Shown here: one piece after another, positions 35,241 through 63,734 of the stretch
Position numbering within the stretch: the first letter of the stretch is position 1
Layout of the letters: each line of letters starts with the position of its first letter
From: Gammaproteobacteria bacterium
Lineage (GTDB): Bacteria > Pseudomonadota > Gammaproteobacteria > Steroidobacterales > Foliamicaceae
Assembly: GCA_965213995.1 (NCBI GenBank)
Contig: OZ243929.1
Span: 1,439,236 to 1,503,235 of the forward strand
DNA: 64,000 bases
Direction of reading: 5' to 3'
Program-made: the position numbers and the translations under genes
Notes under the pieces: model-generated
What the model was told of the DNA's origin: nothing
The model's input: only the letters and a program-made list of their open reading frames with translations
Database searches by the model: none

Positions 35241-36143
35241 GTGAGAAAGAACCGGCGGAATCGCGCAGCGATCCGGCAGGCGGCAGGGGCCGGGCGCGGC
35301 CTCTGGAGCGATGCTTGGAGAGCCCTGCGCCGCAACCGGGCGGCGATGACGGCGGCGGCGATTCTGGCCATGGTGGCGGCGCTCTGCGTGTTCGGCCCGT
35401 TGCTCTCGCCGGTGCCATTCGATTACTTGGACTGGGACTACGTTTCCGTGCCGCCCTCGCTGGAGAACTGGCATTTGTTCGGCACCGACGACTTGGGCAG
35501 GGATCTGTTCGTGCGAACACTGGCGGGCGGCCGCATTTCGCTGATGGTGGGGCTGGTGGCGACCGCGGTGAGCCTCGTGATCGGCATCAGCTACGGCGCG
35601 CTGGCGGGCTATGTGGGGGGCAGGACCGACCAAGTGATGATGCGCATCGTCGATATCCTCTACGCCATGCCTTTCATGTTCCTGGTGATCCTGCTGATGG
35701 TTTTGTTCGGGCGAAATATCGCGCTGATCTTCGTGGCCATCGGCGCCATCAACTGGCTGGACATGGCGCGCATCGTGCGCGGCCAGACGCTTAGCCTCAA
35801 GCGCCGCGAATTCGTCGAGGCCGCGCAGGCGGCGGGCGTTTCCACGCCGCGCATCATCCGGCGGCATATCGTTCCCAACCTCTTCGGCGTGGTGGTGGTT
35901 TACGTCACGCTCACGATCCCGCAGGTGATCCTGGTGGAGTCCTTTTTAAGTTTTCTGGGCTTGGGGGTGCAGGAACCCATGACCTCCTGGGGCGCGCTGG
36001 TCAATGAGGGCGCCAAGGCGCTCGAGAACGCCCCGTGGACACTGGCCTTTCCCGCCGGATTCCTGGCCGCCACGCTGTTTTGCTGCAACTTTATCGGCGA
36101 TGGCCTGCGCGACGCGCTGGACCCGCGCGACAGGAGCGCCTGA
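35241..36143 (+). CDS. Peptide ABC transporter permease (YejE/OppC-like)
   Basis: [50 protein letters not shown] and [24 protein letters not shown]. The start is uncertain: GTG 35241 or ATG 35193. Confidence 0.85.
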
Positions 36144-36144
36144 C

Positions 36145-37953: not shown

Positions 37954-37959
37954 GCCTGT

Positions 37960-39428: not shown

Positions 39429-39435
39429 GCACCGC

Positions 39436-47819: not shown

Positions 47820-47866
47820 GCAGGCCCCGGTCGGCGCAGAGCCCCGGGGGCGGCATTCCCCAAGCT

Positions 47867-47966
47867 CTTTGTTCGTTCCCTGCTTCCGGGAGTGTCGGCG
47901 ACAGGAGTCGCCGCCAAGCCCCATGGATGGGTTTATGCGTCTCCCGGAAGCAGGGAACGAACAAAG
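47867..47966 (+). repeat. Family-1 intergenic palindromic element, copy e2
   Basis: Arms ctttgttcgttccctgcttccgggag / ctcccggaagcagggaacgaacaaag are perfect. Inner hairpin ggcgac-agga-gtcgcc is compensatory relative to ggcggc/gccgcc. Core aagccccatggatgggtttatgcgtctc. Confidence 0.85.
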
Positions 47967-48011
47967 GGCGGAATCGAAGCGTTTCCCGTGGGGGGAAGCG
48001 ATGGAAGCGAT

Positions 48012-50478: not shown

Positions 50479-52584
50479 TCAGGAGACGGAGGCGGAATCT
50501 TTAGCCTGGAGCTTTGGAAACAGCAGTGCCGCTCCCACCTGCAGGCTGTCGGGGTCAAGGCCGGGGTTGTACTGGCGCAGCAGCCACATGGGAATATCGT
50601 TGCGGCGCATGAGTTGCCATACGGAATCACCTCGGCGAACCTTGTATTCGGTGACGCCCACCACGTGGTAGTCGGAGAAAAACGCTTCCTGCAGCGCGTA
50701 ATGAAACGCCACCCGGCGCTCGGTGAAGGTTTGCGCGCTGACCCGGCTGAAGTCCAGCCGCAGCCGCTTGCCCACGCCCACCGGGCGTCCGAATCGCAGG
50801 CCGTTCAGATCCCGCAGCCGCTGGGTTCGGATTTCCAGCCAGTCCGCGTAATGCCCCAGCGTCTCGGCGGCCTGCACTTCGACCATGCCGCCGCTCATCA
50901 CCGAGTAGTCATTCGGGTCCACCAAGCTCACCACGCCGTACGACGGTCCGGTGGGCGCCGGCTCCACCGCAGCCTCGAGCGCCGGTCTGGCTTCCTCCCC
51001 GATCCCGTCGTTGGCCTCGCCGCCGCCGCCGATTTCAGCCGCCGCCATGAGCGATTGCGGCTCCGGCTCGGTGACGGGCGGCTCGGGAATAGGCAGATGG
51101 CCAGCCTTGAGCTTCAGTTCCTGTCCGATGTAAATCCGGTTCTTGTTGGGGATATCGTTCAGCGCCAGCAATTCAGCCTCGGACAAGCGGGCCCGTTGGG
51201 CGATGATGGCGATGGTGTCGCCCCGCCGCACGCGATAAGTGGCGGCGCCTTCTTCTATGGGCTGGGCGGCGGCGGGGGCCAGCCCGGGAATCTCCAGCGA
51301 TTGCCCCGCGCGGATGCGGTGCCTGTTTCGCAGGTTGTTGGTCTGCATGATTCTGGACACGGTGGTTCCGTAGCGCTGCGCGATCAGCGACAGCGTGTCT
51401 CCAGGCTGGATGATGTACTCGCGATCCCGAATCTGGCTGGCAAACCTGAGATCGTCCGCTATGCCCGCGATGAGCGCCTGCGCGTTATCGATGGGCGGCG
51501 CCCTCAAGGTGTAGTTCCGGGGCACGTAACGGGAGCTGCCCAGCACGTTTGCCCGAAAGCCGGGGTTGAGCTCCGCCAGGGTTCTTTCCGACACGCCCAA
51601 GGCATCGGCAAGCGTGTCCATTCGCAGATAGTCCGGCATGTCCAGCATCACGTAGCGAATGGGCGGATCCAGCGTGAGCGGCCCGAAGTAGCGTTCCGCG
51701 TCCTTCTCGATTTCCACCACCGCGATCAGTTCCACATAGAAGTTACGGCCCGCAAACTTGAAGGTTCGCCCCTTGTAGCGCCGCACAACCGTTTCGATAT
51801 CCCGTGTGCCCAACTGCCTTACGGCCCGCAGCATGGCGCCCACGCCCTGGTTGTAGGCGGTAATAGCGAGCGGCCAGCTGTCAAGAAGACTGTGGTTGTA
51901 GGCCAGCAACTGCGCCGCCGCCGTGGAAGCGCGCCAAGGGTCCAGCCGTTCGTCCATGACATTGTCGATGCGCATGAAACGGCGCCCGGTGGAACGCGTG
52001 AATTGCCACATTCCCAGCGCCGATGCCGAGGAGCGGGCCTTGGGGTTGAACGAGGATTCCACATGCGGCAGAGCCACCACGCCTTCAGGAACGCCATGCT
52101 CGCGCAGGGTTGCGAGGATATGCTCTCGCCAGCGCCCGGAGCGCACGAGGCCCTCCTTGAAGCGTTCCGCCATTCCCTGCTGCACGCGGATTCGTCCGGC
52201 CGCGGCCCTCAGGATGGCGCGCGAAGGATTGGGACCCCAAGCATCAAGCGCCCGCTGCTCAAGTTCGCTCAGCTTGGCCGGGCGATTGTCCGCCAAGCGG
52301 TTCAGGACATTGCGGTAGTCGCGCGCGGCCTTGCGGATGGCGTCGCGCCGTCCGCGGGGAGAAAGATTCTTCAATGAAACTTTCCCGTACACCACGCCGG
52401 CGTAAAGGTTGTCGTGAACCAAACCGGCCTCGCCGCCCACTTCGCCGAAAACCTGTTTCCAGAAATCAATCTCGGCGCGCATGCCTTCGGGAACCGGCAA
52501 GCCTCCGGTGTCGGCCGAGGCGGCGAAAGCGAGGGTGAGCGCGAGCGCCGGGAGCAGGGAGAGTGTTCTGGCGCAAGCCCGCAT
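50479..52584 (-). CDS. Lytic murein transglycosylase with three LysM domains (MltD-like)
   Basis: SLT core LPHVESSFNPKARSSASALGMWQF. LysM repeats YIIQPGDTLSLIAQRYG, YRVRRGDTIAIIAQRA and YKVRRGDSVWQLMRRN. Confidence 0.85.
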   Translation of the reverse strand: MRACARTLSLLPALALTLAFAASADTGGLPVPEGMRAEIDFWKQVFGEVGGEAGLVHDNLYAGVVYGKVSLKNLSPRGRRDAIRKAARDYRNVLNRLADNRPAKLSELEQRALDAWGPNPSRAILRAAAGRIRVQQGMAERFKEGLVRSGRWREHILATLREHGVPEGVVALPHVESSFNPKARSSASALGMWQFTRSTGRRFMRIDNVMDERLDPWRASTAAAQLLAYNHSLLDSWPLAITAYNQGVGAMLRAVRQLGTRDIETVVRRYKGRTFKFAGRNFYVELIAVVEIEKDAERYFGPLTLDPPIRYVMLDMPDYLRMDTLADALGVSERTLAELNPGFRANVLGSSRYVPRNYTLRAPPIDNAQALIAGIADDLRFASQIRDREYIIQPGDTLSLIAQRYGTTVSRIMQTNNLRNRHRIRAGQSLEIPGLAPAAAQPIEEGAATYRVRRGDTIAIIAQRARLSEAELLALNDIPNKNRIYIGQELKLKAGHLPIPEPPVTEPEPQSLMAAAEIGGGGEANDGIGEEARPALEAAVEPAPTGPSYGVVSLVDPNDYSVMSGGMVEVQAAETLGHYADWLEIRTQRLRDLNGLRFGRPVGVGKRLRLDFSRVSAQTFTERRVAFHYALQEAFFSDYHVVGVTEYKVRRGDSVWQLMRRNDIPMWLLRQYNPGLDPDSLQVGAALLFPKLQAKDSASVS

Positions 52585-52731
52585 AGTCGGGCTGCCTTTC
52601 TACACCAAAGCGGCGGGTTTCGCAATCCGCGCGCGGGTCTCAATCCTCCATGCGCCTTGCGCGATCAACCTTCCGATGGGCATCATTGCCGCTTAAGTTT
52701 CCAGCCGCGCCGCGAGGTGATTGGAGCCGCA

Positions 52732-53616
52732 GTGAACGAAAAGCCCGGCAAGGCGCAAGCAGCGCTCAAATCGCGCGCCCGCGCCTACGGGCGGCTGATC
52801 CGCTTGAACCGCCCAACAGGAACGCTGCTGCTTTTGTGGCCCACGCTGTTCGCAATATGGCTGGCCTCGGATGGCGTTCCGCCGGGCAATGTGCTGCTTG
52901 TTTTCGTTGCGGGCACCTTCCTCATGCGCTCGGCGGGCTGCGCGCTTAACGATTTTGCCGACCGCCGCGTGGATGCGCTCGTCAAGCGCACCCGCGACCG
53001 GCCGCTGGCAGCGGGTGAAATCCAGCCGGTCGAGGCCCTGGCGGTGGCTGCGGCCTTGACGGTGGCGGCCGCCTTGCTGGCGCTCACGCTGCCGCCTGTT
53101 GTGATCGGGCTTGCGGTGCTGGGCGCCGTCGCGGCCGCGTTCTATCCTTTCGCAAAACGCTTGGTCTCGGCGCCGCAGCTGGTGCTGGGCGTGGCGTTTT
53201 CCTGGGGCGTGCCCATGGCCTACGGGGCCTTGTCGGATTTCGGGGATATTTCCCTGTGGATGCTGTGGCCGCTGACCTACTTGTGGGTGGTTATTTACGA
53301 CACGCTGTATGCCATGGTCGATCGCGACGACGACTTGAAAATCGGCGTGCCGTCCACGGCTGTCCTTCTGGGCGGACGGGACATCGCTTTTATCGCGTGC
53401 GGCCTTGCCGCGTACTTGGCCGGGATGCTGGCATTAGGGCTTTTGCTGGGGCTCGGCGCGCTGTATTTCACCGGCTGGGCGGCGGCGGCGGCATGCGCGG
53501 GCTGGCAGGTCTGGCTGATTCGGGGCCGGGATCGAATGGGCTGTTTCCGGGCTTTCAACAACAATGCGCTGCTGGGCTTTTTCCTCTACGCCGGCTTGGC
53601 CATCGACATGCTCTAG
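52732..53616 (+). CDS. ubiA: 4-hydroxybenzoate polyprenyltransferase
   Basis: RLNRPTGTLLLLWPTLFAIW, NDFADRRVDALVKRTRDRPLAAGEI and YDTLYAMVDRDDDLKIG. The GTG at 52732 is preceded by GGAG. Confidence 0.85.
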   Translation: MNEKPGKAQAALKSRARAYGRLIRLNRPTGTLLLLWPTLFAIWLASDGVPPGNVLLVFVAGTFLMRSAGCALNDFADRRVDALVKRTRDRPLAAGEIQPVEALAVAAALTVAAALLALTLPPVVIGLAVLGAVAAAFYPFAKRLVSAPQLVLGVAFSWGVPMAYGALSDFGDISLWMLWPLTYLWVVIYDTLYAMVDRDDDLKIGVPSTAVLLGGRDIAFIACGLAAYLAGMLALGLLLGLGALYFTGWAAAAACAGWQVWLIRGRDRMGCFRAFNNNALLGFFLYAGLAIDML

Positions 53617-53667
53617 CCCCGCATATTGCAACAAGCGGCTTGTTGCCTTCCTAGTTCGGAGCGTGCT

Positions 53668-53775
53668 TCCCCTGCCCTTTCTCCGCCCCTTTCCCGCAGG
53701 AGACGCATGACTACTTGAAGCTTGACCTGCATAGGTCAAGAACCCGTCCATGGGGCTTGGCGGCGGACGGTCGCT
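53668..53775 (-). repeat. Family-1 element, copy f (degenerate, with nested insertion)
   Basis: The left arm and the core gagacgcatga|acccgtccatggggcttggcggcgg are present. The core is split by ctacttgaagcttgacctgcataggtcaag, which contains the hairpin cttgacct/aggtcaag. No matching right arm was found. Confidence 0.6.
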
Positions 53776-53862
53776 TCCGCCTCAAGTTATGATGGCAAGC
53801 CTTATGGCGGCGGCAAGACGGGCGGGAGCAGTGGCCGGGCTGGCATCGCCCGCCTGCGGGTA

Positions 53863-54726
53863 ATGCCCATGCCTGAAGCGGGGGCCATCGAAACGCCGTC
53901 GGGCAAGGGCGCGGCGGACGAGAATTTTCCCGTTGGCTCATGGTTGCTGCCGGCGCGATTGCGGCGGCATATCGCGGCGTTTTACGCCTACGCCCGGGCC
54001 ATTGACGATATTGCCGATAATCCGCAACTTGAGCCCTCGGAGAAAATCCGCCGTCTAGAGGGTTTCGCGCAGGCGGTGAGCGGAGCGAGAACGGACGACG
54101 CGGCCTACCGCACGGCGCACGATATCCGCCGCAGCCTTGCGGAAACCGGCGTTAGCCATCGGCACTGCGTGGATTTGACCCGCGCCTTCAAGCAGGACGC
54201 GGTCAAGCGGCGCTATGCCGATTGGGGCGAATTGATGGACTACTGCAACTTCTCCGCCGCGCCCGTAGGCCGCTACCTGATTGATTTGCACCGCGAGAGC
54301 GGCAGCGCCTACGAGCCCGCCGACGCGTTGTGCAACGCCTTGCAAGTCCTCAACCATTTGCAGGATTGCGTCGACGACTACCGCCTGCTCGACCGGGCAT
54401 ATCTGCCAGGCGACTGGATGCGCGAGGCCGGCGCAAACCTCGAAATGCTTCGCGAGCCTGCTGCCCCATGCGCCTTGCGTGAAGTTTTCAATCGCTGCCT
54501 GGATGCCACTGACGCCCTGCTGCTTTCGGCCAACCAGCTGGCCGGGCGCTTGCGCGGCGCGCGCTTCGCTATGGAGTCGGCGACGATAGTGGCCATTGCC
54601 TGGAAACTCAGCGCTGAATTGCGCCGCCGCGATCCGGTCGCGGAGCGGGTGGAATTGAGCAGGATGCAATTCGCCGGCTGCGTGATGCGCGGCATCGGTC
54701 GTGTATCGCTTGGCCGAAACGGCTAG
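53863..54726 (+). CDS. hpnC: Hydroxysqualene/squalene synthase HpnC
   Basis: SGKGAADENFPVGSWLLPARLRRHIAAFYAYARAIDDIADN is the HpnC-type N-terminus (ENFPV). A second Asp-rich region, LQDCVDD, follows. Confidence 0.8.
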   Translation: MPMPEAGAIETPSGKGAADENFPVGSWLLPARLRRHIAAFYAYARAIDDIADNPQLEPSEKIRRLEGFAQAVSGARTDDAAYRTAHDIRRSLAETGVSHRHCVDLTRAFKQDAVKRRYADWGELMDYCNFSAAPVGRYLIDLHRESGSAYEPADALCNALQVLNHLQDCVDDYRLLDRAYLPGDWMREAGANLEMLREPAAPCALREVFNRCLDATDALLLSANQLAGRLRGARFAMESATIVAIAWKLSAELRRRDPVAERVELSRMQFAGCVMRGIGRVSLGRNG

Positions 54727-54740: not shown

Positions 54741-55817
54741 TTGATTTTGGAGGTAGCCCTGTTGGGGAGAACGGCTCCTGTTTTCGTGACCGGTGCAGCG
54801 GGGCATGTCGGCGCCAATCTGGTTCGCCGACTGCTCCGAGATGGCGTGAAAGTGCGCGTTCTGCTCCGGCACCAAGACAACAATGAAGGGCTCGACGGCT
54901 TGGACGTGGAGCGCGTGTTCGGTGATATCCGCGACCTTGATGCCACGCGCAAGGCGGTGGAAGGCTGTCAAGGCGTGTACCATGTCGCGGCCAAGATATC
55001 GACCATCGAGGGCAATCACGCCCATCGGCGGGAAATATTCGATTGCAACGTTGTGGGCACCCGCAATATGCTTAAGGCCGTGCGGGAGGCCGATGCCGGC
55101 CGCATGGTGGTGACCGGCTCCTTCAGCGCCGTCGGCTATGATCTTGATAATCCCTCCTCCCCGGCCAACGAATCCATGCAGTTCTATCCCATGGAGCGCA
55201 CCATGCCTTACGAGCGCAGCAAGTCGCTGGTTGAGCATGAGTGCTGGCGCGCCGCGGCAGCTGGCCAGGATGTGGTGGTGGCGACCTGTTGCGCGGTGGT
55301 GGGCGCTGCGGATTTCTTTCCCTCGAGGCTGGGGAGCGCCTTGTGCGCCTTCAGCAACCGCAAGTTGCGGGCCTACGTGGATGGAGGCTTCGAGTTTGTT
55401 GCCGCCCGCGACATCGTGGAAGGTCATGTGCTGTGCATGGAGCGCGGGCGCTCGGGTGAAAAATACATTTTCAGCAGCGAGTACAAAACGATCTCCGAAA
55501 TTCTCGATCTGTTCGAGGAGGTTTCGGGTGCGCCGCGCCCAAACCGCCGGGTTCCGGTGGGCCTGATGCTGCCGTTCTCCGAGGTGGCGAGCTTTTATCT
55601 CAGTCGCTGCCATCCGGATTTTCCGCAGCGCTTTACGCCGGGCGCCATCCGCCTGCTGCGCAAGTGCTTGCACGCCGATACTGGCAAGGCCCAGCGGGAG
55701 CTGGGCTACCGGCCCACCAGCATCCGGGAAGCGGTGCATGAAGCCTATGCGTTCCATCATCAGCGCAATGCCATTACTCATCCGCTCGCCAAGGCGCCGA
55801 GGGAGGGTCCGGCGTGA
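54741..55817 (+). CDS. NAD-dependent epimerase/dehydratase family protein (HpnA-like / 3-beta-HSD-like SDR)
   Basis: VFVTGAAGHVGANLVRRLL Rossmann motif, with an extended-SDR catalytic YERSK (YxxxK). A TTG at 54762, preceded by GGAGG, may be the true start. Confidence 0.8.
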   Translation: MILEVALLGRTAPVFVTGAAGHVGANLVRRLLRDGVKVRVLLRHQDNNEGLDGLDVERVFGDIRDLDATRKAVEGCQGVYHVAAKISTIEGNHAHRREIFDCNVVGTRNMLKAVREADAGRMVVTGSFSAVGYDLDNPSSPANESMQFYPMERTMPYERSKSLVEHECWRAAAAGQDVVVATCCAVVGAADFFPSRLGSALCAFSNRKLRAYVDGGFEFVAARDIVEGHVLCMERGRSGEKYIFSSEYKTISEILDLFEEVSGAPRPNRRVPVGLMLPFSEVASFYLSRCHPDFPQRFTPGAIRLLRKCLHADTGKAQRELGYRPTSIREAVHEAYAFHHQRNAITHPLAKAPREGPA

Positions 55818-55876: not shown

Positions 55877-56986
55877 ATGAACCAGGCACAGGTAGAGGCA
55901 CAGGCAGCGCCGCCGCCCGGCTTTTACGAGGCCGGCAATTTGCGGCAGAAGTCCCGCGCCGCCGGCATGGACCCCGACTATTGGTACGCCGTGGAGGAAG
56001 TCCGGCGGATCAAGCCGGGGACTGTGGTCGAGGTGGTGTTCTGGAAACGCTCGATCGCGCTTTATCGCGCCAAGGACGGATCTTTTCATGCCATGGAGAA
56101 TCGCTGCGCGCACCGCCAGCTCAAACTGTCCTTGGGCGTGGTGGAGGGTTGCCGGCTGGTGTGCTCCTACCACGGCTGGAAATACGACCCGGACGGAAAA
56201 CTGGCCGATACCGATCATGAGCGGATGGGCAAATTGCCCAAGGTGCAAGTCAAAACCTATCCGGTGAAAGTGCGTTACGGCCTCGTATGGCTATTTCCAG
56301 GCGATCCGGACCGGGCCGAATCGCGCCCGATTCCGGATATTCCCGAACTTGAGGGGCGCGGTCGCTGGGCCTGCGTGCCTCTCACTTTTACTTGGACCGC
56401 TCATCACTCGATGGTGATCGATAATGTGAGCGATTTCTCGCATGCTTTTCTGCACCGCCGCTACCGTCCGTTTGTGGGCGCAAAGCTGACCCGTTGCGAA
56501 ACCGTAGGCGACGATGTGCATGTGTCCTACGACACGGAGATAGGCGCCGGCCGCATTTCCAGCCGGTTTGTGGACAAGGCTAGCGTCGACACCCAGTATA
56601 TCGAGCTTTGCTACCAGTACCCGTACCAGTGGTCCAATACCGACGATGCGATCAAGCACTGGCTTTTTGTGCTGCCGATTGATGAGCGGACCACCCGCGC
56701 GTTCTTCCTGTTCTATTTCAAATCGCTGAAAATCCCCGTGGTGCCGGTGCGGATTCCACGCTTCGCCATGACTGCGGTGCTGAAGCTATCCAACCGATGG
56801 CTGATCGGCCCCTTGCTGGGTCAGGACGGATTTGCGGTTGAGGCGGAGCAGGAAGGTTACGAGCGCCACTGGGATGCCCGCCCGCTTGAGTTCAATCCGG
56901 TGGTTAGAGCCTTTCAGAACGTGACGGTGCGCAAGTGGCAGGAGCACTTGGAGCGCGAGAAAGCCAACGGGGCCGCCAGTGCCTGA
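55877..56986 (+). CDS. Rieske [2Fe-2S] non-haem-iron oxygenase
   Basis: Rieske motif CAHRQLKLSLGVVEGCRLVCSYHGW (CxH...CxxH). Candidate mononuclear-iron motif NVSDFSHAFLH. A GGAGG RBS precedes the ATG. Confidence 0.85.
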   Translation: MNQAQVEAQAAPPPGFYEAGNLRQKSRAAGMDPDYWYAVEEVRRIKPGTVVEVVFWKRSIALYRAKDGSFHAMENRCAHRQLKLSLGVVEGCRLVCSYHGWKYDPDGKLADTDHERMGKLPKVQVKTYPVKVRYGLVWLFPGDPDRAESRPIPDIPELEGRGRWACVPLTFTWTAHHSMVIDNVSDFSHAFLHRRYRPFVGAKLTRCETVGDDVHVSYDTEIGAGRISSRFVDKASVDTQYIELCYQYPYQWSNTDDAIKHWLFVLPIDERTTRAFFLFYFKSLKIPVVPVRIPRFAMTAVLKLSNRWLIGPLLGQDGFAVEAEQEGYERHWDARPLEFNPVVRAFQNVTVRKWQEHLEREKANGAASA

Positions 56987-58073
56987 ATCCCAGTTCGCGG
57001 CACCCATTCTGTCGGGCGGCATGCTGATCGATGCCGCCGCGATGGCGGGCGTTTTTCTGGTTTGGCTGTTTGTCGGATCGATGTTTCTGCCCGGCGCCCG
57101 CGTTGCCGGGGAGGATGCGGAAGGGAACCCCGTGAGCTACCGGCTCAACGGCTTGGCGCTGTACCTGCTGACCGCGCTCGCGGCCGCCGCGGCCCATCTG
57201 GGCGGATGGTTCCCGCTGTCGGTGCTCTATAGCCATTTCTTCGCCCTGTTCGCAGTGGCGAATCTGTTCGCGTTTGCGCTTTCCGGATGGCTCTATTGGC
57301 GCGGCGCGCGCAAGCGCCGGCAGCCCGGATTTTGGCGGAACTTTTTCTACGGCACCGAGCTCAATCCTTCGCTGCTGGGCGTGGATCTTAAGATGTTCAG
57401 CTATCGCCCCTCGCTGATCGGGCTGGCGCTGCTCAATGCGTCCTTCGCCGTGGTGCAATACGAAACGCACGGTCGGATTACGCTGGCGATGGCGCTCTAT
57501 CAAGCGCTTGGTTTTATTTACGTGCTCAATTATTTTCAGTTCGAGCGCGGAATGCTGCGAACTTGGGATATCGTGAGCGAACGCTTCGGATGGATGCTGG
57601 TGTGGGGCGACTACGCGCTGGTGCCGTTTTTCTACTGCATTGCCGGTTGGTGGCTGGTGGATGCCGCCGGACCAGCCATGCATCCTGTTTTCGCCGCTGG
57701 CATCGCGCTGCTTTTCGGTGTCGGCTTCTGGATATTTCGCGGCGCCAACTCGCAGAAGGATCGCTTTAAGAATGATCCCGGGGCCATGATTTGGGGCAAG
57801 CCGGCGGAATCGCTTGACGGCCGGCTGCTTGTATCGGGATTTTGGGGCATCGGGCGGCATCTCAATTACACGGGGGAGATTTGCATCTACCTGGCGTTTG
57901 CCCTCACCACCGGGTTCTCTTCCTGGGTGCCCTATCTGCTGCCCGCTTGGATAGCGAGCCTTTTGTGGCATCGCTCGCGGCGGGATGAGCGCCGCTGTCG
58001 GGCCAAGTACGGCGAGCTGTGGGCGCGCTACCGGCAGCGGGTGCCCTGCTGCATGATTCCGTTTGTGTACTAG
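56979..58073 (+). CDS. ERG4/ERG24-family sterol reductase (Delta14/Delta7/Delta24-type)
   Basis: FFYGTELNP, WDIVSERFGWMLVWGDYALVPFFY, FRGANSQKDRFK, LLVSGFWGIGRHLNYTGE and LLWHRSRRDERRCRAKYGELWARYRQRVPCCMIPFVY are family hallmarks. The GTG overlaps the Rieske gene stop by 8 nt. Confidence 0.85.
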   Translation: MPESQFAAPILSGGMLIDAAAMAGVFLVWLFVGSMFLPGARVAGEDAEGNPVSYRLNGLALYLLTALAAAAAHLGGWFPLSVLYSHFFALFAVANLFAFALSGWLYWRGARKRRQPGFWRNFFYGTELNPSLLGVDLKMFSYRPSLIGLALLNASFAVVQYETHGRITLAMALYQALGFIYVLNYFQFERGMLRTWDIVSERFGWMLVWGDYALVPFFYCIAGWWLVDAAGPAMHPVFAAGIALLFGVGFWIFRGANSQKDRFKNDPGAMIWGKPAESLDGRLLVSGFWGIGRHLNYTGEICIYLAFALTTGFSSWVPYLLPAWIASLLWHRSRRDERRCRAKYGELWARYRQRVPCCMIPFVY

Positions 58074-58149
58074 GAGCTTGCGGCCGGCCCGTGGGGCGCG
58101 AAAACCGCTTCGCCGCGACACGGCGCCGTTGGCAGTCCCGCCTGTTTAG

Positions 58150-61100
58150 ATGAAACAATCCTCAAGTATGCCGTCCTATGACATAGCCGTCGTGGGCGCC
58201 GGACCGGTAGGCAGCGTATGCGCCCTGGCCCACGCCCGCAAAGGTGCCCGGGTGGCTTTGCTGGAAGCCAATCCGCGCGCCGTGCGGCGTTTGGCCGGCG
58301 AGTGGCTGCATCCGCCCGGGGCGCGCGCGCTGCGCAATCTGGGGGTTGATCTTGATACGCAGCTGCCCAGTTGCGCGGGCAGAGGGTTTGTGGTGTTCCC
58401 GGACGATGGCGGAGAGTCCATTGTCTTCAATTATCCCGACGAAGCGCCCGGTCTGGTGTGTGAGCACGAGACGCTGGTTGGACGGCTGCGCGAGACCATC
58501 GAGCGCGAGCCGGGAATCGACTATCTGGCGCAAGCGAGGGTGCGCGAGGTGGGGGGCCGGCAGCTCGGCTACACGTTCGATGGCTCGAATCAGCGCCTGA
58601 CCGCCGGCAGAATTGTGGGAGCCGACGGTCGGATGTCGGTGGTGCGCAAATCGCTGGGCCTGTCCGCCGAGCTGATGACCAGCTCGCGGATGCTGGGCCT
58701 GGTTCTCAACGATGTGCATTTGCCGCTGGAGGGCTATGGACACCTGCTGCTGGGCGGTCCGGGCCCGATCCTCATCTACCGGGTGGCCGAGGAGCGCATC
58801 CGCCTCATTGTGGATATCCCGCTGGACCACTGGGCGCCGGGAGATCCGGTCGGCTTGCTGTTGGACGCCTATGCTCCGCTTGTGCCCGAGGAGGTTCGCG
58901 CCGCCTTTGTGCAGGCGTTGCGCTCAGGCAGGTTCAGAGCCGCGGCCAGCAGCTTGCGGCCGCGCGTCACCTACGGCAGCCCGGACCGGGTGCTGATCGG
59001 CGATGCCGCTGGACATTACCATCCGATGACAGCGATGGGGATGACCCTGGGCTTCGGCGATGCGATTGCGCTGGCCGAAAGCGCAAACTTCGAGGAGTTC
59101 TCGAACCGCCGTTTTTTGGATACGCGCGCGCCCGAGCTGCTTGCCATGGGCCTCTACGAGGTCTTCGCCGATCATCGCGACGAGGCCACGATGCTGCGCC
59201 ACGCGGTGTACCGGAACTGGCGGGCGAATGATGCCTTCCGCGAGCGAACCGTGGGCTTGTTGGCCTGCGAGGACACATCCCTTTCCAGCCTGACCTTGGC
59301 GTTCGGTGCCACGGTGCTGCGGTCGGTGGCGGGCGAGATTCCGCTTTCCTATAAAGCCAGCGTATGGCGGCGGCCTCTTGATTTGGTTCAGCGGCTTGCC
59401 GTGCGGCTCGGATGGGCGCTGGTTGGCGTGCGGGACTTGCAGAAGGCCAAGAGCGCAAACGGAAGCATGCAACCGCAGCCAAGCCATCCGCTGGCGCATG
59501 CGTTTTTAGTGTCGATGCCGGCGCGATCCGGCGCGGCGAAGTCCGTTCAATCAAAAGAGCCTGCTCCGCCCGATCCTGAAACCGCCGTTCGGCGGGCCGC
59601 AAAACGGCTAGTGGGTTTGCAGCGCGATGACGGCGCCTGGGAGGGCGAGATGGTGTGGTGCCCCATGCTCACCGCGCAATATGTGCTGCTCCATCATATC
59701 CTCGGGCGGCCGCTGGGCGATGCCCGGCGCCGCAGCGTTCTGCGCCAATTTGAGCGCAGCCGCTTTGCCCAAGGCCAATGGGGCATGCACGACCATTCGC
59801 CGCCCAATCTGTTTGTGACCACCCTGGTTTATGTTGCAGCGAGACTGCTGGGGGTTGAGCGCGACGATCCCTTGATAGAGCCGGCGCGCGCCTTCATGCA
59901 AACCGAAGGCGTTGCAAGCATTCCCAGCTGGGGGAAATTCTGGCTTGCGCTTTTGGGCCTGTACGGCTGGCGCGGGGTCAATCCCGTGCTTCCCGAACTC
60001 TGGCTGCTGCCGCGCTGGTTTCCTTTGCATCCGTCCAACTGGTACTGCCATACCCGCCTGATCTACATGGCCATGGCCGCGATCTACGCGCGGCGGTTCG
60101 TAGCGCCAGCCACGCCATTGATCGCCTCGTTGCGGGAGGAGCTGTATCCGCAGGGGTTCTCAAGCGTCAATTTCTCTGCGGCGCGCAACCTGCTTCGCCA
60201 AGGCGATCTGTTTGCCCGCCCGAGCGTTTGGCTCAGGGCCGGCTACGCCATGGCGCGCCTCTACGACCGCCTCCATATCCGTCGCCTGCGTGCCCGCTGC
60301 GTGAAATCGATCATTCCCCGGATCCGCTGGGAGCTGAACAGTTCAAGCCACACGAATATTTCCCCGGTGAGCGGAATTCTGAATATCCTCGCGTTATGGC
60401 TGCGCGACCCCAACGATTCCGATGGCCTCAAGGCGCTTGAAAAGCTGGAGGACTGGATATGGGATGACGAAGAGCACGGCGCGCGCGTGACCGGCGCCCG
60501 AAGCGCTTCCTGGGACACCGGCTTTGCGCTGCAGGCGCTGTCGGCCGCCGCCAAGGTCGAGGACACCGGGAGCGCCATGCAAAACGCTGCGGACTTCCTT
60601 GCGGCGCAACAGATCAATGTGAGCTTCGAAGGATTTCGCGAAGCCTTCCGGGCGGACCCGAAGGGCGGCTGGTGCTTTGCCGGCGGCTGGCATGGTTGGC
60701 CGGTATCCGACTGCACCGCCGAAGCGGTGCTGGGGCTTGTCGCCGCGCGCGGCGATGCGGCGGACCGCGCCGCGATCGCCAATGCCGTCGCCTTCATGCT
60801 GCGCAGCCAGAACCGCGACGGCGGTTTCGGCAGTTACGAGGCGCGCCGCTCCAGGGTTCCTCTGGAGTGGCTGAATCCTGCGGAGATGTTTGGCGAGTCG
60901 ATGACCGAGCATTCATTTGTGGAATGCACAGCATCCTGCCTCGCGGCGCTGGCCGCGGCGGGCAGGCATTTCCCGGACCTTGCCGACGACTCTGTTTCGG
61001 CAGCCGTGTCGCGGGCGGATGCGTGGCTCAGGCGCACCCAGGCCAGCGACGGGTCGTGGCGCGGAGTGTGGGGCGTGCAATTTGTTTACGGCACGTTTTT

Positions 61101-61512
61101 CGGGGTGCGGGGCCTGCTGGCTGCTGGTTGCAGCCGGACCGATCCGGCTCTGCGCCTAGCCTGCCGGTGGCTGCTGGACCGCCAGCGGGAGGATGGCGGA
61201 TGGGGCGAACACCACAGCGGCTGCTTGCCCGGCACTTACGTGGAGCATGAGGAAAGCCAGGTCATCCAAACCGCTTGGGCATTGATCGCGCTTTTAGAGG
61301 CGGGCGATTCCAACTGGGCGGCGCTTTCGCGCGGCGCCCAGTTCCTGCTGAGAACGCAGCAAGAGGATGGCGGATGGCCCAAGCAGGATATGGCGGGGGT
61401 GTTTTTCCGAACCGCGCTTCTGGACTACGTGCTCTACCGGCAGTATTTCCCTTTGCATGCGCTGGCGCTGTTCGAGCGCCGTCAGGCGCGCTTGGATACG
61501 GCAAGGTCGTGA
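58150..61512 (+). CDS. Fusion protein: squalene monooxygenase (epoxidase)-like FAD domain plus oxidosqualene cyclase
   Basis: N-terminal domain: YDIAVVGAGPVGS, GEWLHPPG (compare the SQMO motif GELLQPGG) and GDAAGHYHPMTAMGMT (compare GDAxNMRHPLTGGGMT). C-terminal domain: multiple QW repeats (QRDDGAWEGE, QNRDGGFGSYE, QASDGSWRGVWG, RQREDGGWGEH, QQEDGGWP) and the catalytic GGWHGWPVSDCTAEAV. One uninterrupted 1120-aa ORF. Confidence 0.85.
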   Translation: MKQSSSMPSYDIAVVGAGPVGSVCALAHARKGARVALLEANPRAVRRLAGEWLHPPGARALRNLGVDLDTQLPSCAGRGFVVFPDDGGESIVFNYPDEAPGLVCEHETLVGRLRETIEREPGIDYLAQARVREVGGRQLGYTFDGSNQRLTAGRIVGADGRMSVVRKSLGLSAELMTSSRMLGLVLNDVHLPLEGYGHLLLGGPGPILIYRVAEERIRLIVDIPLDHWAPGDPVGLLLDAYAPLVPEEVRAAFVQALRSGRFRAAASSLRPRVTYGSPDRVLIGDAAGHYHPMTAMGMTLGFGDAIALAESANFEEFSNRRFLDTRAPELLAMGLYEVFADHRDEATMLRHAVYRNWRANDAFRERTVGLLACEDTSLSSLTLAFGATVLRSVAGEIPLSYKASVWRRPLDLVQRLAVRLGWALVGVRDLQKAKSANGSMQPQPSHPLAHAFLVSMPARSGAAKSVQSKEPAPPDPETAVRRAAKRLVGLQRDDGAWEGEMVWCPMLTAQYVLLHHILGRPLGDARRRSVLRQFERSRFAQGQWGMHDHSPPNLFVTTLVYVAARLLGVERDDPLIEPARAFMQTEGVASIPSWGKFWLALLGLYGWRGVNPVLPELWLLPRWFPLHPSNWYCHTRLIYMAMAAIYARRFVAPATPLIASLREELYPQGFSSVNFSAARNLLRQGDLFARPSVWLRAGYAMARLYDRLHIRRLRARCVKSIIPRIRWELNSSSHTNISPVSGILNILALWLRDPNDSDGLKALEKLEDWIWDDEEHGARVTGARSASWDTGFALQALSAAAKVEDTGSAMQNAADFLAAQQINVSFEGFREAFRADPKGGWCFAGGWHGWPVSDCTAEAVLGLVAARGDAADRAAIANAVAFMLRSQNRDGGFGSYEARRSRVPLEWLNPAEMFGESMTEHSFVECTASCLAALAAAGRHFPDLADDSVSAAVSRADAWLRRTQASDGSWRGVWGVQFVYGTFFGVRGLLAAGCSRTDPALRLACRWLLDRQREDGGWGEHHSGCLPGTYVEHEESQVIQTAWALIALLEAGDSNWAALSRGAQFLLRTQQEDGGWPKQDMAGVFFRTALLDYVLYRQYFPLHALALFERRQARLDTARS

Positions 61513-61525: not shown

Positions 61526-62269
61526 ATGATCCGCACACGGGCCCGGACAACTGCTGACCACACCCACGCCGCCGCTAGTCAGGGGGAAGGCGTTGCGGTG
61601 CCGGCGGGCGTGCTCCTGACGCTGATACTGGCCGTTTTGGCTTTGCCCGGCCTTGCGGCGCGCTATTGGGCCGACGGCCATCTGAGCTTGGTTTATTCCG
61701 TCCTCTGCGTGTTCTTTGCCGTTAACTTTCTTATCTGCTGGTGGGAAATTTGCCTCTACTTCCGCCGCGACTATATCGAAAAGCGCGCCCGCTACTGGCG
61801 GCAGCACCGAAAGGAAACTGGCCGCTCGCCGGTGCTGGATTTTGTTCTTTCCCGGGTGCCGCTCAAGCGAGCGTTTTCGCTCACTGTTTGGGCCAACGTT
61901 TGGGCCACCTACGCCGAATATGACGGCTCGTACGCGGACCGCCGCAGCTACGGGTTCAACGTCGATGTCGCCAACGGCTTCGCAACGCCGCTGCCCACAT
62001 TGGCGCTCTATGCGGCCTACGCCTTCGAGTTCATTCCGGCCCTTGCCGCAGGCATTCTTGGGGCCATGCTGTTTTGGCAATTCCTCTACATGACCTCCGC
62101 GTATCTTCTGAGCTTTGCGGTAGCGAAGCGCTATGAGCGCCTCAGCGGCCGGGAAATTTGCATCTATATTCTGGCAATGAATTCGGTATGGATACTGTGT
62201 CCGATTTTGGGCCTCTTCGTATCGATCGACCTGATCGTGAGCGGCAGCTACAGCGCCTTGGGATACTGA
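61526..62269 (+). CDS. Polytopic membrane protein, EBP/EXPERA-like (candidate sterol Delta8-Delta7 isomerase)
   Basis: About 4-5 TM segments. A by-eye match to the emopamil-binding-protein pattern: FAVNFLICWWEICLYF (EBP: FIHLVIEGWFVLYY), VWATYAEYDGSYADRRSY (EBP: LWKEYAKGDSRY) and ILAMNSVWILCPILG (EBP: VFMNALWLVLPGVL). Confidence 0.5.
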   Translation: MIRTRARTTADHTHAAASQGEGVAVPAGVLLTLILAVLALPGLAARYWADGHLSLVYSVLCVFFAVNFLICWWEICLYFRRDYIEKRARYWRQHRKETGRSPVLDFVLSRVPLKRAFSLTVWANVWATYAEYDGSYADRRSYGFNVDVANGFATPLPTLALYAAYAFEFIPALAAGILGAMLFWQFLYMTSAYLLSFAVAKRYERLSGREICIYILAMNSVWILCPILGLFVSIDLIVSGSYSALGY

Positions 62270-62316
62270 ACCAGAAGCCTCCCGCAGCCGGCCCCAAAGC
62301 CGCACAGCAGTTAAAG

Positions 62317-62420
62317 CCCGGTTCTCGGCCCCGCCTCGTGGGAGTGTCGGCGGCAGGAGCCGCCGCCAAGCCCCATGGATGGGTTTATGCGTCTCCCACG
62401 AGGCGGGGCCGAGAACCGGG
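62317..62420 (+). repeat. Family-1 intergenic palindromic element, copy g
   Basis: Arms cccggttctcggccccgcctcgtgggag / ctcccacgaggcggggccgagaaccggg are perfect. Inner hairpin ggcggc-agga-gccgcc, core aagccccatggatgggtttatgcgtctc. It lies between convergent genes. Confidence 0.85.
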
Positions 62421-62447
62421 CGAGGTCGAGCACAGCGAGGTTGCTGG

Positions 62448-63734
62448 CTATGCCAGCGGTCGGCGGGTGGGCTGGGCCGTCTGGCGGACGATGGCTTGGG
62501 CGGCGATTTCTCCGGACCGAACTGCCGATTCGATGGTGGCAGGCAAGCCGGTGGCGGTCCAGTCACCGGCTAGGAACACATTGGCGAACGCGCTTGCGGC
62601 GCCGGGGCGCAGACGCGCTTGTTCCGGTGTTTGAACAAACGTGGCCCGCTTTTCTTTCACCACGCGGTACGGCGGAAGGCTCGCCGGATTGTCGGCCAGC
62701 GCGGCAGCGACATCGCGCCAAGTTCGCTCAGCCAGCACCGCGGCTGATTCATGCACCAGATCAGCTGCGGCGCTAATGGTGACGGAGGCCACATCGCCGC
62801 GAACAAAAAGCCATTGCGCCGTGCCTCCGATCAGTCCGATAAACGGGAGCTGTGCGGGAATATCGGCTGGTTGGGACAAACGAAAATGCACATTCACGAT
62901 GGGGCTGCTTTGCAGCGGCGCCGCGAGTCCGGGCAGCAAGCCCGCCGCGGCCTGCGGCGGAACGGCTAGCACCACCCTGTCGTCCGCGCCGAGCCGCACG
63001 CGGCGCTCGCCGAAACACAGCGCCTCCGCCCGTCCATTCGACCGCTCGATTTGAGTGAGCCGCCGCTTAAATTGCAGCTCCGCTCCTTGTGCCCGCAGCC
63101 AAGCGAGCGCCGGGTCCACAAACGCGTCGGACAGCCCCCGCGCGGCGATCAGCGGACGGCAAGCGGCCTCGCCTTTGGCGAAGGTCTCGCGCAACACCGG
63201 CCGCAGCAATTGCGCGGCGCCCTCGGTGGCCGGCATGTTCAGCGCCGCCACGGCAAGCGGTTCCCAGAAACGCTCAAATAAAACGCCGCGGCTGCCCACG
63301 CAGTCCGCGACTGTCCGGCTGGGTCCGGCGAGCATCAATGCGAGCGCCGAAAGATGGCTCCATGCCGAGGAGTCGGGCGTTCTTCTGCCGGGATGAAAAA
63401 TCCACCAGGGCACGATGCCCGAGTTGGGGCGCAGCATCCATCGCCGCCCGCCGCCCACATCGAAAAAGGGAAAGCAGGCTCTTTCCGGGCCGACCAGCGC
63501 GTTGGCGGCGGCGCCGACCAGCGAGAGGTAGCGGGCAGTCGATTGGTTGCCGCTCAGCAACAGATGATTGCCGTTATCAATGCTGCATCCGAGCCGGGCA
63601 TCGGCAAAGGAGCGGCAGCGCCCGCCGGCCCGCCCGCTTGCCTCATGCAGCACTACCGCATGCTTTTTCGCGAGCAGGGAAACGGCCGTGGAAAGCCCCG
63701 CCAGCCCGGCGCCTATGACGTGCGTTCGGGGCAA
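62448..63734 (-). CDS. hpnE: Squalene-associated FAD-dependent desaturase HpnE
   Basis: HVIGAGLAGLSTAVSL...VLHEASGRAGGRCRSF dinucleotide fold, an amine-oxidase-like body and the C-terminal FLAGDWTATGLPATIESAVRSG. It lies downstream of hpnD. Confidence 0.85.
   Translation of the reverse strand: MPRTHVIGAGLAGLSTAVSLLAKKHAVVLHEASGRAGGRCRSFADARLGCSIDNGNHLLLSGNQSTARYLSLVGAAANALVGPERACFPFFDVGGGRRWMLRPNSGIVPWWIFHPGRRTPDSSAWSHLSALALMLAGPSRTVADCVGSRGVLFERFWEPLAVAALNMPATEGAAQLLRPVLRETFAKGEAACRPLIAARGLSDAFVDPALAWLRAQGAELQFKRRLTQIERSNGRAEALCFGERRVRLGADDRVVLAVPPQAAAGLLPGLAAPLQSSPIVNVHFRLSQPADIPAQLPFIGLIGGTAQWLFVRGDVASVTISAAADLVHESAAVLAERTWRDVAAALADNPASLPPYRVVKEKRATFVQTPEQARLRPGAASAFANVFLAGDWTATGLPATIESAVRSGEIAAQAIVRQTAQPTRRPLA

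What the first reader, a model, noticed from the sequence alone, without database searches (positions are those of the whole stretch)
56979..58073. ERG4/ERG24-family sterol reductase with no CYP51 in the window
The 364-aa protein carries the full C-terminal signature of eukaryote-like sterol C=C reductases (LLxSGxWGxxRHxNYxGE ... RDxxRCxxKYGxxWxxY). It is translationally coupled to the Rieske gene.

A Delta14-reductase normally acts on the diene made by CYP51 14-demethylase. No P450 is encoded anywhere in these 64 kb. Three readings remain: CYP51 lies elsewhere, the enzyme is a Delta7- or Delta24-type reductase, or 14-demethylation uses non-P450 chemistry (the Rieske oxygenase is an obvious suspect).
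Basis: partly seen in the sequence, partly recalled or inferred. Interest (0 to 1): 0.65.

Follow-up and report, generated by a model that had tools for sequence, protein, structure and literature searches.

The report
Sterol reductase beside a deleted CYP51
This is a normal-looking bacterial sterol C-14 reductase gene in a sterol operon of a likely sponge-symbiont bacterium, and its usual partner gene CYP51 has been cut out, leaving a 20-codon stump, yet the reductase is still kept intact by selection.

Summary
Window 56979-58073 (+) encodes a 364-aa ERG4/ERG24 reductase whose GTG start overlaps the stop of the upstream Rieske gene by 8 nt. No P450 is present in the 64 kb.

The context changes the interpretation.
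- The gene lies in the operon SdmB-SdmA-reductase-[gap]-fused squalene epoxidase/oxidosqualene cyclase.
- In 78 of 80 related species genomes, and in the nearest sister lineage, a bona fide CYP51 sits in that gap.
- In the window the gap holds an in-frame 20-codon relic (58091-58153): the CYP51 N-terminus joined to its C-terminus. So CYP51 was deleted in place.
- The Rieske protein is the known C-4 demethylase type (SdmA). It is unchanged relative to CYP51-bearing relatives, so it is not a substitute 14-demethylase.
- The reductase is orthologous to the CYP51-adjacent delta-14 reductases. It keeps its catalytic and NADPH-binding residues and is under purifying selection (omega about 0.15) as strong as in CYP51-bearing genomes.

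I could not determine whether another 14-demethylase exists elsewhere in the genome. No vertically inherited copy appears in the protein database. The verdict is a new variant of a known operon, of moderate interest.

The parts
56979..58073 (+). ERG24/TM7SF2/MaSR1-type sterol reductase, 364 aa. An alternative ATG at 57021 would give 350 aa.
   Evidence: Pfam PF01222 E=6.4e-73. 4QUV E=1.6e-71. The AF2 model matches only 4QUV, TM 0.62. Y181, K260, N296 and R332 are invariant; E300 stands in place of MaSR1 D363 in all 134 family sequences. Omega is 0.14-0.18.
58091..58153 (+). In-frame 20-codon relic of CYP51 (VGRENRFAATRRRWQSRLFR*). It joins the N-terminal ~12 codons to the C-terminal ~8 codons at the Arg-Arg codons, where both ends of the intact gene carry CGGCG. 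Its TGA stop overlaps the ATG at 58150.
   Evidence: Translation. Comparison with L001 CYP51 termini VAREYDLAALRR... and ...RRRSHTSLFR*. The 3' part reaches a score matched by 0 of 500 shuffles, the 5' part by 4 of 500. blastn E=2e-4. The same relic is in L006, L008, L076, L002 and L078.
55877..56986 (+). Rieske [2Fe-2S] oxygenase of the SdmA type (sterol C-4 methyl oxidase), 369 aa.
   Evidence: Pfam Rieske plus VanA_C. NCBIfam NF052579, 4beta-methylsterol monooxygenase, 421 bits; this is below the 600-bit equivalog cutoff, and the next hit scores 37 bits. It sits directly upstream of the reductase in the related loci where it was detected, nearly all of them.
54741..55817 (+). SDR/3beta-HSD-like protein of the SdmB type. 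Relatives' gene calls give 351 aa, which would start near 54762.
   Evidence: Pfam Epimerase and 3Beta_HSD. NCBIfam NF052578 SdmB 293 bits, cutoff 600.
58168..61512 (+). Fused squalene epoxidase / oxidosqualene cyclase, 1114 aa (1120 aa if it starts at the ATG at 58150). The cyclase half is of the lanosterol-synthase type.
   Evidence: Pfam SE plus SQHop_cyclase_N/C. TIGR03463 761 bits. Human lanosterol synthase 1W6K E=1.6e-130, with V at position 453 and the D455 equivalent (V/I rule from PMC4919349).
61526..62269 (+). Conserved 247-aa multi-pass membrane protein with a predicted EBP-like fold; candidate sterol delta8-delta7 isomerase.
   Evidence: No Pfam match. 320 homologues, all unnamed. 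AF2 pLDDT 85. Foldseek top hits are human EBP 8W0R and 6OHT, probability 1.00 and 0.99, TM 0.49-0.58, E=0.027 and 0.25.
53722..54726 (+). HpnC-type squalene synthase family protein.
   Evidence: Pfam SQS_PSY. TIGR03464 HpnC 256.6 bits, above its cutoff.
62448..63734 (-). HpnE-type hydroxysqualene dehydroxylase.
   Evidence: TIGR03467 394.9 bits, above its cutoff.

Best explanation
The gene encodes a working NADPH-dependent sterol reductase. It is the orthologue of the delta-14 reductase (ERG24/TM7SF2/MaSR1 type) found in a horizontally spread bacterial sterol operon. That operon's normal order is SdmB-SdmA-reductase-CYP51-squalene epoxidase/lanosterol synthase.

Shown:
- In this species and its closest relatives, an in-frame internal deletion between two short CGGCG repeats removed CYP51. 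It left a 20-codon stump between the reductase and the cyclase gene.
- The rest of the operon is intact and under purifying selection.

Inferred:
- The enzyme still works as in its relatives. A Tyr181/Glu300 pair protonates C15 of a delta-8,14 sterol diene and NADPH delivers hydride to C14.
- The diene is made by a 14-demethylase encoded outside the operon, for example a second, more divergent CYP51 that made the operon copy dispensable.
- The Rieske and SDR genes upstream remove a C-4 methyl group, not the C-14 methyl.
For: Identity and fold.

Orthology and synteny:
- 78 of the 80 best species-representative loci have reductase and CYP51 adjacent.
- The window's protein is nested inside that clade.
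- The sister lineage carries CYP51 between the reductase and SE/OSC on three independent contigs.
- That P450 is a CYP51: its top PDB hits are named CYP51, E about 1e-96.

Deletion:
- Homology to L001 breaks 12 nt before the reductase stop and resumes 38 nt before the CYP51 stop.
- The relic ORF and its similarity to both CYP51 termini.
- Seven independent CYP51-less assemblies besides the window (L002, L003, L006-L008, L076, L078), from several samples and assembly projects.

Function retained:
- Omega is 0.14-0.18 at dS 0.27-0.52 between CYP51-less lineages.
- Among 78 CYP51-bearing pairs of similar divergence, only 10 have omega of 0.14 or less, and 6 have an equal or higher reductase/SE-OSC rate ratio.
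- Y181, K260, N296 and R332 are invariant (residue roles from PMC4951196 and PMC12489058).
- There is no radical substitution specific to the CYP51-less lineages.

Operon continuity: no terminator or promoter-like site was created at the junction.
Against: No second CYP51 was found.
- With the sister lineage's CYP51 as query, nothing lies between 77% and 97% identity, where a relocated vertical copy is expected. The reductase and CYP51 diverge at about the same rate.
- None of the 120 listed CYP51 clusters sits on the known Mb-scale contigs of this species. This applies to cluster representatives only.
- In the species-representative scan, the two assemblies of this clade (JAPOTY01, JAPYNE01) gave a reductase locus but no CYP51 locus among the 80 kept.
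- No other genome in that set showed an extra orphan CYP51, so second copies seem rare in this family.
Confidence: 0.45

Rival explanations
1. The lineage has no sterol 14-demethylase at all. It makes 14-alpha-methyl sterols: lanosterol, then C-4 demethylated by SdmAB. The ERG24-type reductase is kept because it reduces a different double bond, for example delta-24(25) in the side chain or another nuclear bond. This activity would already have existed before CYP51 was lost.
For: All negative searches for CYP51. Purifying selection on the reductase since the deletion is as strong as in CYP51-bearing genomes. The clade in which the loss occurred, together with its CYP51-bearing sister, shares radical substitutions at sites that are at least 95% conserved elsewhere in all four enzymes. 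These include H261D next to the NADPH-binding Lys of the reductase, which suggests the pathway had already diverged. CYP51 removal may have happened twice, because the junctions differ and L003 pairs with CYP51-bearing L001 on the reductase tree. From general knowledge, the ERG4/ERG24 family does include side-chain reductases (ERG4).
Against: To my knowledge, no ERG24-clade enzyme is known to be bifunctional. No substitution in the reductase tracks the loss of CYP51. In relatives that carry a sterol methyltransferase, a separate divergent paralogue is present, presumably for side-chain reduction. Absence of CYP51 genome-wide is not shown.
Confidence: 0.28
2. The reductase has no substrate of its own any more. 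It is retained for a non-catalytic reason, such as a structural role in a membrane enzyme complex or keeping translation of the downstream cyclase coupled. Alternatively, it acts on delta-8,14 sterols taken up from the host.
For: The operon is tightly coupled: an 8-nt overlap with SdmA, and a relic ORF whose stop overlaps an in-frame ATG upstream of the cyclase start. The organism belongs to a group dominated by sponge-symbiont MAGs, so host sterols are at hand (record titles; PMC9531527).
Against: Selection acts over the whole protein, and the catalytic and cofactor residues are invariant in all 16 clade members. That is not expected for a mere spacer or scaffold. Delta-8,14 dienes are transient intracellular intermediates in eukaryotes (general knowledge), so they are an unlikely nutrient.
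Confidence: 0.12
3. One reading: 14-demethylation is done by non-P450 chemistry, with the Rieske oxygenase replacing CYP51.
For: The Rieske gene is translationally coupled to the reductase. From general knowledge, Rieske oxygenases can oxidise sterol methyl groups (SdmA at C-4).
Against: The same Rieske gene sits directly upstream of the reductase in nearly all of the 78 CYP51-bearing operons. Its best family match is SdmA, 421 bits against 37 for the next family. Only 2 of its 170 strongly conserved positions differ in the CYP51-less lineages, and both changes are shared with CYP51-bearing L001. Its omega is 0.08-0.10 throughout. There is no duplicate copy in the loci.
Confidence: 0.04

Closest known systems
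MaSR1, delta(14)-sterol reductase of Methylotuvimicrobium alcaliphilum (PDB 4QUV)
   Same: Same family and fold: E=1.6e-71, 37-38% identity over the structural alignment, Foldseek TM 0.62. The NADPH-contact residues N359 and R395 and the predicted catalytic Tyr241 are conserved as N296, R332 and Y181.
   Different: About 60 residues shorter at the N-terminus. The alignment starts at MaSR1 residue 74, and the model shows about nine long helices instead of ten TM segments. The predicted catalytic Asp363 is Glu300 in every member of this subfamily. No CYP51 partner is present in the operon here.
'Cluster of steroid genes' TM7SF2/ERG24-CYP51-LSS/ERG7 of sponge-associated bacterial MAGs (Kelly et al. 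2022, PMC9531527)
   Same: Same operon family. The order is reductase-CYP51-fused SE/OSC in 78 of the 80 related species loci, many from sponge MAGs of several phyla. Omega values are similar to those published: ERG24 0.13, LSS 0.17.
   Different: The middle gene, CYP51, is missing and replaced by a 63-nt relic. That paper did not annotate the SdmA/SdmB genes, which lie upstream of the reductase in most of the loci I examined.
Methanotroph sterol pathway: CYP51 plus SdmA/SdmB, with the NTF2-fold 8,14-Bsr reductase (Lee et al. 2026, PMC13277303)
   Same: Uses SdmA/SdmB-type C-4 demethylation and a lanosterol-type cyclase.
   Different: Most methanotrophs lack the ERG24-type reductase and use the unrelated 8,14-Bsr. 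Here the ERG24-type enzyme is present. No NTF2-family (8,14-Bsr-like) Pfam match appeared among the window ORFs scanned, which were mostly 150 aa or longer. No specific 8,14-Bsr search was run.
Orphan ERG4/ERG24 reductases of intracellular bacteria such as Coxiella burnetii (from my own knowledge, not checked here)
   Same: A sterol reductase of this family in a bacterium without the matching upstream eukaryote-type step.
   Different: Those bacteria lack sterol synthesis altogether and act on host sterols. Here the squalene-to-lanosterol and C-4 demethylation genes flank the reductase.

Membership tests
ERG4/ERG24 sterol reductase family (Pfam PF01222) | Significant match to the family profile over most of the protein | tested here: met
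   246 bits against a gathering cutoff of 27; residues 24-364 match profile positions 72-432.
ERG4/ERG24 sterol reductase family (Pfam PF01222) | C-terminal cofactor-binding signatures and the NADPH-contact residues (MaSR1 N359 and R395, equivalent to LBR N547 and R583) | tested here: met
   LLVSGFWGIGRHLNYTGE and RDERRCRAKYGELW are present. N296 and R332 are invariant in 134 family sequences. Residue roles come from PMC4951196.
ERG4/ERG24 sterol reductase family (Pfam PF01222) | Predicted catalytic Tyr/Asp pair (MaSR1 Y241/D363; ScERG24 Y257/D374) | tested here: inconclusive
   Tyr is conserved (Y181). The acidic residue is Glu300, not Asp, in all 134 subfamily members, including those next to CYP51 (roles from PMC12489058).
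ERG4/ERG24 sterol reductase family (Pfam PF01222) | MaSR1-like multi-pass membrane fold with ten TM segments | tested here: inconclusive
   The AF2 model (pLDDT 74, pTM 0.76) matches only 4QUV (E=2.8e-16, TM 0.62). However, the protein lacks the first ~70 residues of MaSR1 and the model has about nine long helices.
Delta-14 sterol reductase subfamily (ERG24/TM7SF2/LBR/MaSR1, EC 1.3.1.70) | Closest characterised relatives are delta-14 reductases, and the protein is orthologous to reductases genomically paired with CYP51 | tested here: met
   Both PDB sequence hits are delta(14)-sterol reductases. The protein is nested among 78 CYP51-adjacent reductases, far from the SMT-associated paralogues.
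Delta-14 sterol reductase subfamily (ERG24/TM7SF2/LBR/MaSR1, EC 1.3.1.70) | A sterol 14-demethylase in the same organism to supply the delta-8,14 diene | tested here: not met
   Absent from the operon and the 64-kb window. No vertical copy was detected in the databases. The rest of the genome could not be scanned.
Delta-14 sterol reductase subfamily (ERG24/TM7SF2/LBR/MaSR1, EC 1.3.1.70) | NADPH-dependent reduction of the C14=C15 bond in vitro or in a heterologous host | not testable with these tools
   Requires an experiment.
DHCR7 / ERG4 subfamilies (delta-7 and delta-24(28) reductases) | Phylogenetic grouping with characterised DHCR7 or ERG4 proteins | not tested
Indirect evidence is against: synteny with CYP51 in orthologues, and a separate divergent paralogue next to SMT.
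Bacterial 'cluster of steroid genes' (ERG24-CYP51-LSS; PMC9531527) | The three core genes adjacent in this order | tested here: not met
   The reductase and the fused SE/OSC are adjacent, but CYP51 is reduced to a 63-nt relic. This is therefore a derived variant, not a standard member.
SdmA / SdmB bacterial sterol C-4 demethylation pair (neighbouring genes) | Score above the NCBIfam equivalog cutoffs built on methanotroph proteins | tested here: inconclusive
   SdmA 421 bits and SdmB 293 bits, each against a cutoff of 600. Each is the top hit; for SdmB the hopanoid-associated HpnA model is close behind at 236 bits. The pair lies upstream of the reductase in most related operons.

The most novel reading that the evidence does not exclude
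This bacterial lineage is a natural CYP51 knock-out. It makes 14-alpha-methyl sterols and keeps an ERG24-type reductase for a reaction that does not depend on 14-demethylation. That would be a substrate specificity not yet described in the delta-14 clade of the ERG4/ERG24 family, or a dual specificity shared by the whole bacterial operon family.
Probability: 0.27. Interest if true: 0.7.

Novelty: new variant of a known kind. Interest (0 to 1): 0.5.

Why it matters
Bacterial sterol operons of sponge symbionts bear on how sterane biomarkers are read and on the origin of eukaryotic sterol synthesis. This lineage offers a clean natural experiment. One step, 14-demethylation, was excised from an otherwise conserved and selected operon, while the enzyme that normally consumes its product was kept.

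There are two outcomes.
- A second demethylase exists elsewhere. That is ordinary, but it would show redundancy and gene shuffling in these mobile operons.
- The reductase has a CYP51-independent job. That would extend the known chemistry of the ERG24 clade and predict unusual 14-methyl sterols in sponge holobionts.

Both outcomes are directly testable with the existing lanosterol-producing E. coli system.

Tried and rejected
1. H261D in the FRGANxQK[H/D]xF motif first looked like a marker of CYP51 loss: Asp in all 16 CYP51-less sequences, His in 117 of 118 others. The single exception turned out to be the CYP51-bearing sister L001. It is therefore a clade marker that predates the loss.

2. 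Relaxed selection on the reductase was rejected. Omega is 0.14-0.18. The reductase/SE-OSC rate ratio of 1.5 in the relic-bearing lineage is matched or exceeded by 6 of 78 control pairs.

3. Neofunctionalisation of SdmA was rejected.

4. One versus two CYP51 losses is unresolved. Concatenated informative sites split 22:21:10 and the bootstrap splits about evenly. The reductase NJ tree and the different junctions favour two losses, but a second deletion of the relic in L003 is equally possible.

5. I tried using 'longest contig' lengths as fingerprints to place CYP51 hits on the species' Mb-scale contigs. This works as a positive control for many relatives, but it applies to cluster representatives only, so a negative result is weak.

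6. I first took the 3.18-Mb ENA contig to be the window's source. It is 98.5% identical. The window is 99.87% identical to another assembly (L008), so these are the same species and not the same record.

It cannot detect a CYP51 that shares none of three exact 8-mers with the probe, and only the best 80 of 155 relatives were returned.

8. A sequence-level link between the 247-aa protein and EBP was not found with Pfam or a PDB profile search.

9. No terminator, promoter-like site or unusually stable structure lies in the junction.
Full report
**Observation.** The ORF at 56979-58073 (+) is real and encodes 364 aa from a GTG start. It matches Pfam ERG4_ERG24 at E=6.4e-73. It also matches the crystal-structure protein MaSR1, a bacterial delta(14)-sterol reductase (4QUV), at E=1.6e-71. 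An AlphaFold model (pLDDT 74) finds only 4QUV in the PDB, with TM 0.62. The GTG overlaps the stop of the upstream Rieske gene by 8 nt. The 14 residues before the alternative ATG are conserved across the family, and relatives are called with the same overlap. The translational coupling is therefore supported. No P450 is encoded in the window: there is no Cys-ligand loop in six frames, no tblastn hit with two CYP51 queries (best E=0.44), and no PF00067 in Pfam scans of the ORFs.

**Surroundings.** The reductase is the fourth gene of a plus-strand cluster, in this order:
- HpnC-type squalene synthase (53722-54726);
- an SDR whose best family match is SdmB (54741-55817);
- a Rieske oxygenase whose best match by far is SdmA, the 4-methylsterol monooxygenase (55877-56986; 421 bits against 37 for the next family, though below the 600-bit equivalog cutoff);
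- the reductase;
- a fused squalene epoxidase/oxidosqualene cyclase (58168-61512);
- a 247-aa membrane protein (61526-62269).

HpnE lies on the other strand. The cyclase half has Val at human position 453. Wei et al. 2016 found this residue to track lanosterol rather than cycloartenol production in bacteria. The rest of the window is housekeeping DNA around the replication origin.

**Relatives show what is missing.**
- The reductase has over a thousand relatives in metagenomes.
- In a relative at 81% identity (L001, a 2.37-Mb contig) the cluster is collinear, but a 469-aa P450 lies between the reductase and the cyclase gene.
- That P450 is a CYP51: its top PDB hits are named CYP51, including M. 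tuberculosis CYP51, at E about 1e-96.
- The arrangement is confirmed on two further contigs of that lineage and in a 73% relative that also carries a sterol methyltransferase.
- I scanned one genome per species with a concatenated probe (window reductase plus L001 CYP51). It returned 155 relatives, of which the best 80 were kept. Of these, 78 have reductase and CYP51 adjacent. The typical order is SdmB-SdmA-reductase-CYP51-SE/OSC, with or without SMT and the 247-aa gene.
- The record titles are mostly sponge-symbiont MAGs from several phyla.
- This is the 'cluster of steroid genes' TM7SF2/ERG24-CYP51-LSS described by Kelly et al. 2022.
- Only two of the 80 loci, both from the window's own clade, have the reductase without CYP51 (L076, L078).
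- With L002, L003 and L006-L008, seven independent assemblies besides the window show the CYP51-less order.

**The deletion.**
- Against L001, homology stops 12 nt before the reductase stop and resumes 38 nt before the CYP51 stop.
- The 94 nt between the reductase and the conserved cyclase start contain an open 20-codon frame, 58091-58153: VGRENRFAATRRRWQSRLFR*.
- Its first 12 codons resemble the CYP51 N-terminus of L001 (VAREYDLAALRR). Its last 8 resemble the C-terminus (RRRSHTSLFR*). The join is at the Arg-Arg codons, where both ends of the intact gene carry CGGCG.
- The 3' similarity is reached by 0 of 500 shuffles and the 5' similarity by 4 of 500.
- The same relic occurs in L006, L008, L076, L002 and L078. 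One deletion therefore predates the split of these lineages, which is reductase dS about 0.29 deep.
- L003 has no relic. Its cyclase gene starts 7 nt after the reductase stop. Whether that is a second, independent loss is unresolved.
- The junction has no terminator, no promoter-like site and no unusual structure.

**Is the reductase still in use?**
- Pairwise dN/dS between CYP51-less lineages is 0.14-0.18 at dS 0.27-0.52.
- In 78 CYP51-bearing pairs of similar divergence, only 10 have omega of 0.14 or less.
- The one mild signal is that the reductase evolves 1.5 times as fast as SE/OSC in the relic-bearing lineage. Six of the 78 control pairs match or exceed that ratio.
- The residues reported to contact NADPH (MaSR1 N359 and R395) and the predicted catalytic Tyr241 are invariant here as N296, R332 and Y181. 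The acidic partner is Glu300 in all 134 subfamily sequences, a family trait.
- Of about 145 positions conserved at 95% or more in the family, six differ in the CYP51-less group. The only radical one, H261D, is shared with CYP51-bearing L001.
- The enzyme therefore looks unchanged and selected.

**Is there a CYP51 elsewhere?** This could not be answered directly, because no tool scans a named genome.

Indirect evidence against a relocated copy:
- Reductase and CYP51 diverge at similar rates (71% and 70% identity between L001 and L004). A vertically inherited copy should therefore be about 80% identical to L001's.
- The protein database holds Mb-scale contigs of this species. It returns one 98% hit from L001's own lineage and nothing else above 76%.
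- The two CYP51-less assemblies in the species-representative set gave no CYP51 locus among the 80 kept.

Limits of this evidence:
- Only the top 120 protein hits (68% identity or more) are visible.
- Contig fingerprints apply to cluster representatives only.
- The genome scan needed one of three exact 8-mers.
- A divergent or horizontally acquired second CYP51 is therefore not excluded.

- The Rieske-as-14-demethylase idea is not supported. The same gene sits upstream of the reductase in nearly all of the CYP51-bearing operons, it is SdmA-like, and it has no change specific to the CYP51-less lineages.
- The delta-7/delta-24 reading is not supported by orthology. In some relatives a separate, very divergent ERG4/ERG24 paralogue sits beside the sterol methyltransferase and is the more natural side-chain reductase.
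- 'CYP51 elsewhere' stays open.

**Most likely mechanism.**
- Shown: identity, fold, orthology, in-place deletion of CYP51, and continued purifying selection.
- Inferred: the enzyme still reduces the C14=C15 bond of a delta-8,14 diene with NADPH. This needs a demethylase encoded elsewhere, and redundancy would also explain why the operon copy could be lost (about 0.45).
- Main rival, about 0.28: there is no demethylase, and the reductase has a CYP51-independent substrate that it could already use before the loss.
- Minor rivals: non-catalytic retention or host-derived substrates (about 0.12), and Rieske-based 14-demethylation (about 0.04).

**Comparison and novelty.** The protein is a member of the ERG4/ERG24 family and, by orthology, of its delta-14 clade. 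The operon is a derived variant of a published operon family. The CYP51 deletion relic, together with retention of the reductase, is not mentioned in the papers I read. I rate it a new variant of a known kind, with interest about 0.5.

**Side findings.**
- The 247-aa operon protein has no sequence-detectable family. It folds confidently (pLDDT 85), and its only high-probability structural matches are human EBP, the sterol delta8-delta7 isomerase.
- A short intergenic repeat family flanks the cluster.
- The clade shares radical substitutions at otherwise conserved sites in all four enzymes.

Noticed in passing
window 61526-62269 (+): A conserved 247-aa multi-pass membrane protein follows the cyclase gene in many of these sterol operons, with or without CYP51. 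It has no Pfam or PDB sequence match, and all 320 homologues are 'hypothetical'. Its AlphaFold model (pLDDT 85) matches only human EBP, the sterol delta8-delta7 isomerase, with high probability (8W0R/6OHT, probability 1.00/0.99, TM 0.49-0.58, E=0.027/0.25). It is a candidate bacterial sterol isomerase that sequence methods do not detect.
   Followed up: partly
window 58168-61512 (+): Squalene epoxidase and oxidosqualene cyclase are fused into one 1114-aa protein. tblastn with the fused window protein recovers a single SE/OSC feature in nearly all related loci, which fits fusion being the rule in this family, although domain architecture was confirmed only in the loci with gene calls. The cyclase half has the lanosterol-type Val453.
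   Followed up: partly
L036, L061, L083 (second reductase hit near the SMT gene): Some related operons carry a second, very divergent ERG4/ERG24 paralogue next to the sterol methyltransferase. It forms a distant branch from the CYP51-adjacent reductases and is a plausible side-chain (delta-24(28)) reductase.
   Followed up: partly
window 7860-8344, 19296-19606, 23442-23611, 47860-47981, 53666-53710, 62312-62444: A family of 40-120-nt intergenic repeat elements (core CTCGCGGGAGACGCATGAACCCATCCATGGGGCTCGGC) occurs in both orientations, including at both edges of the sterol cluster. The conspecific assemblies L006 and L007 carry an extra copy between the UbiA and squalene synthase genes.
   Followed up: partly
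window 19682-26416 (-) and 27226-40311 (+): This is the replication-origin neighbourhood: gyrB-recF-dnaN-dnaA diverging from yidC-mnmE-mnmG, followed after an oligopeptide ABC transporter by rsmG-parA-parB. The sterol operon lies about 30 kb from dnaA.
   Followed up: no
SdmA R224A; SdmB D203A and N347H; reductase H261D (window 57759-57761); SE/OSC N267S and N603G: The clade formed by the window's species, L002, L003 and CYP51-bearing L001 shares radical substitutions at positions that are at least 95% conserved in the other ~75 species, in all four operon enzymes. H261D lies next to the NADPH-binding Lys260. The pathway of this clade may have diverged before CYP51 was lost.
   Followed up: partly
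between window 62269 and 62448, compared with L001 16666-18024 and L003 14497-15855: The window's species lacks a 452-aa amine-oxidase/CrtI-like gene that lies between the 247-aa gene and HpnE in L001 and L003. This is a second gene loss in the cluster.
   Followed up: no
window 52414-53616 (+): A 4-hydroxybenzoate polyprenyltransferase (UbiA; TIGR01474, 277.8 bits, just above its cutoff) sits directly upstream of the squalene synthase gene. It is syntenic in L001 and L003. It is probably a ubiquinone gene rather than part of the sterol pathway.
   Followed up: no
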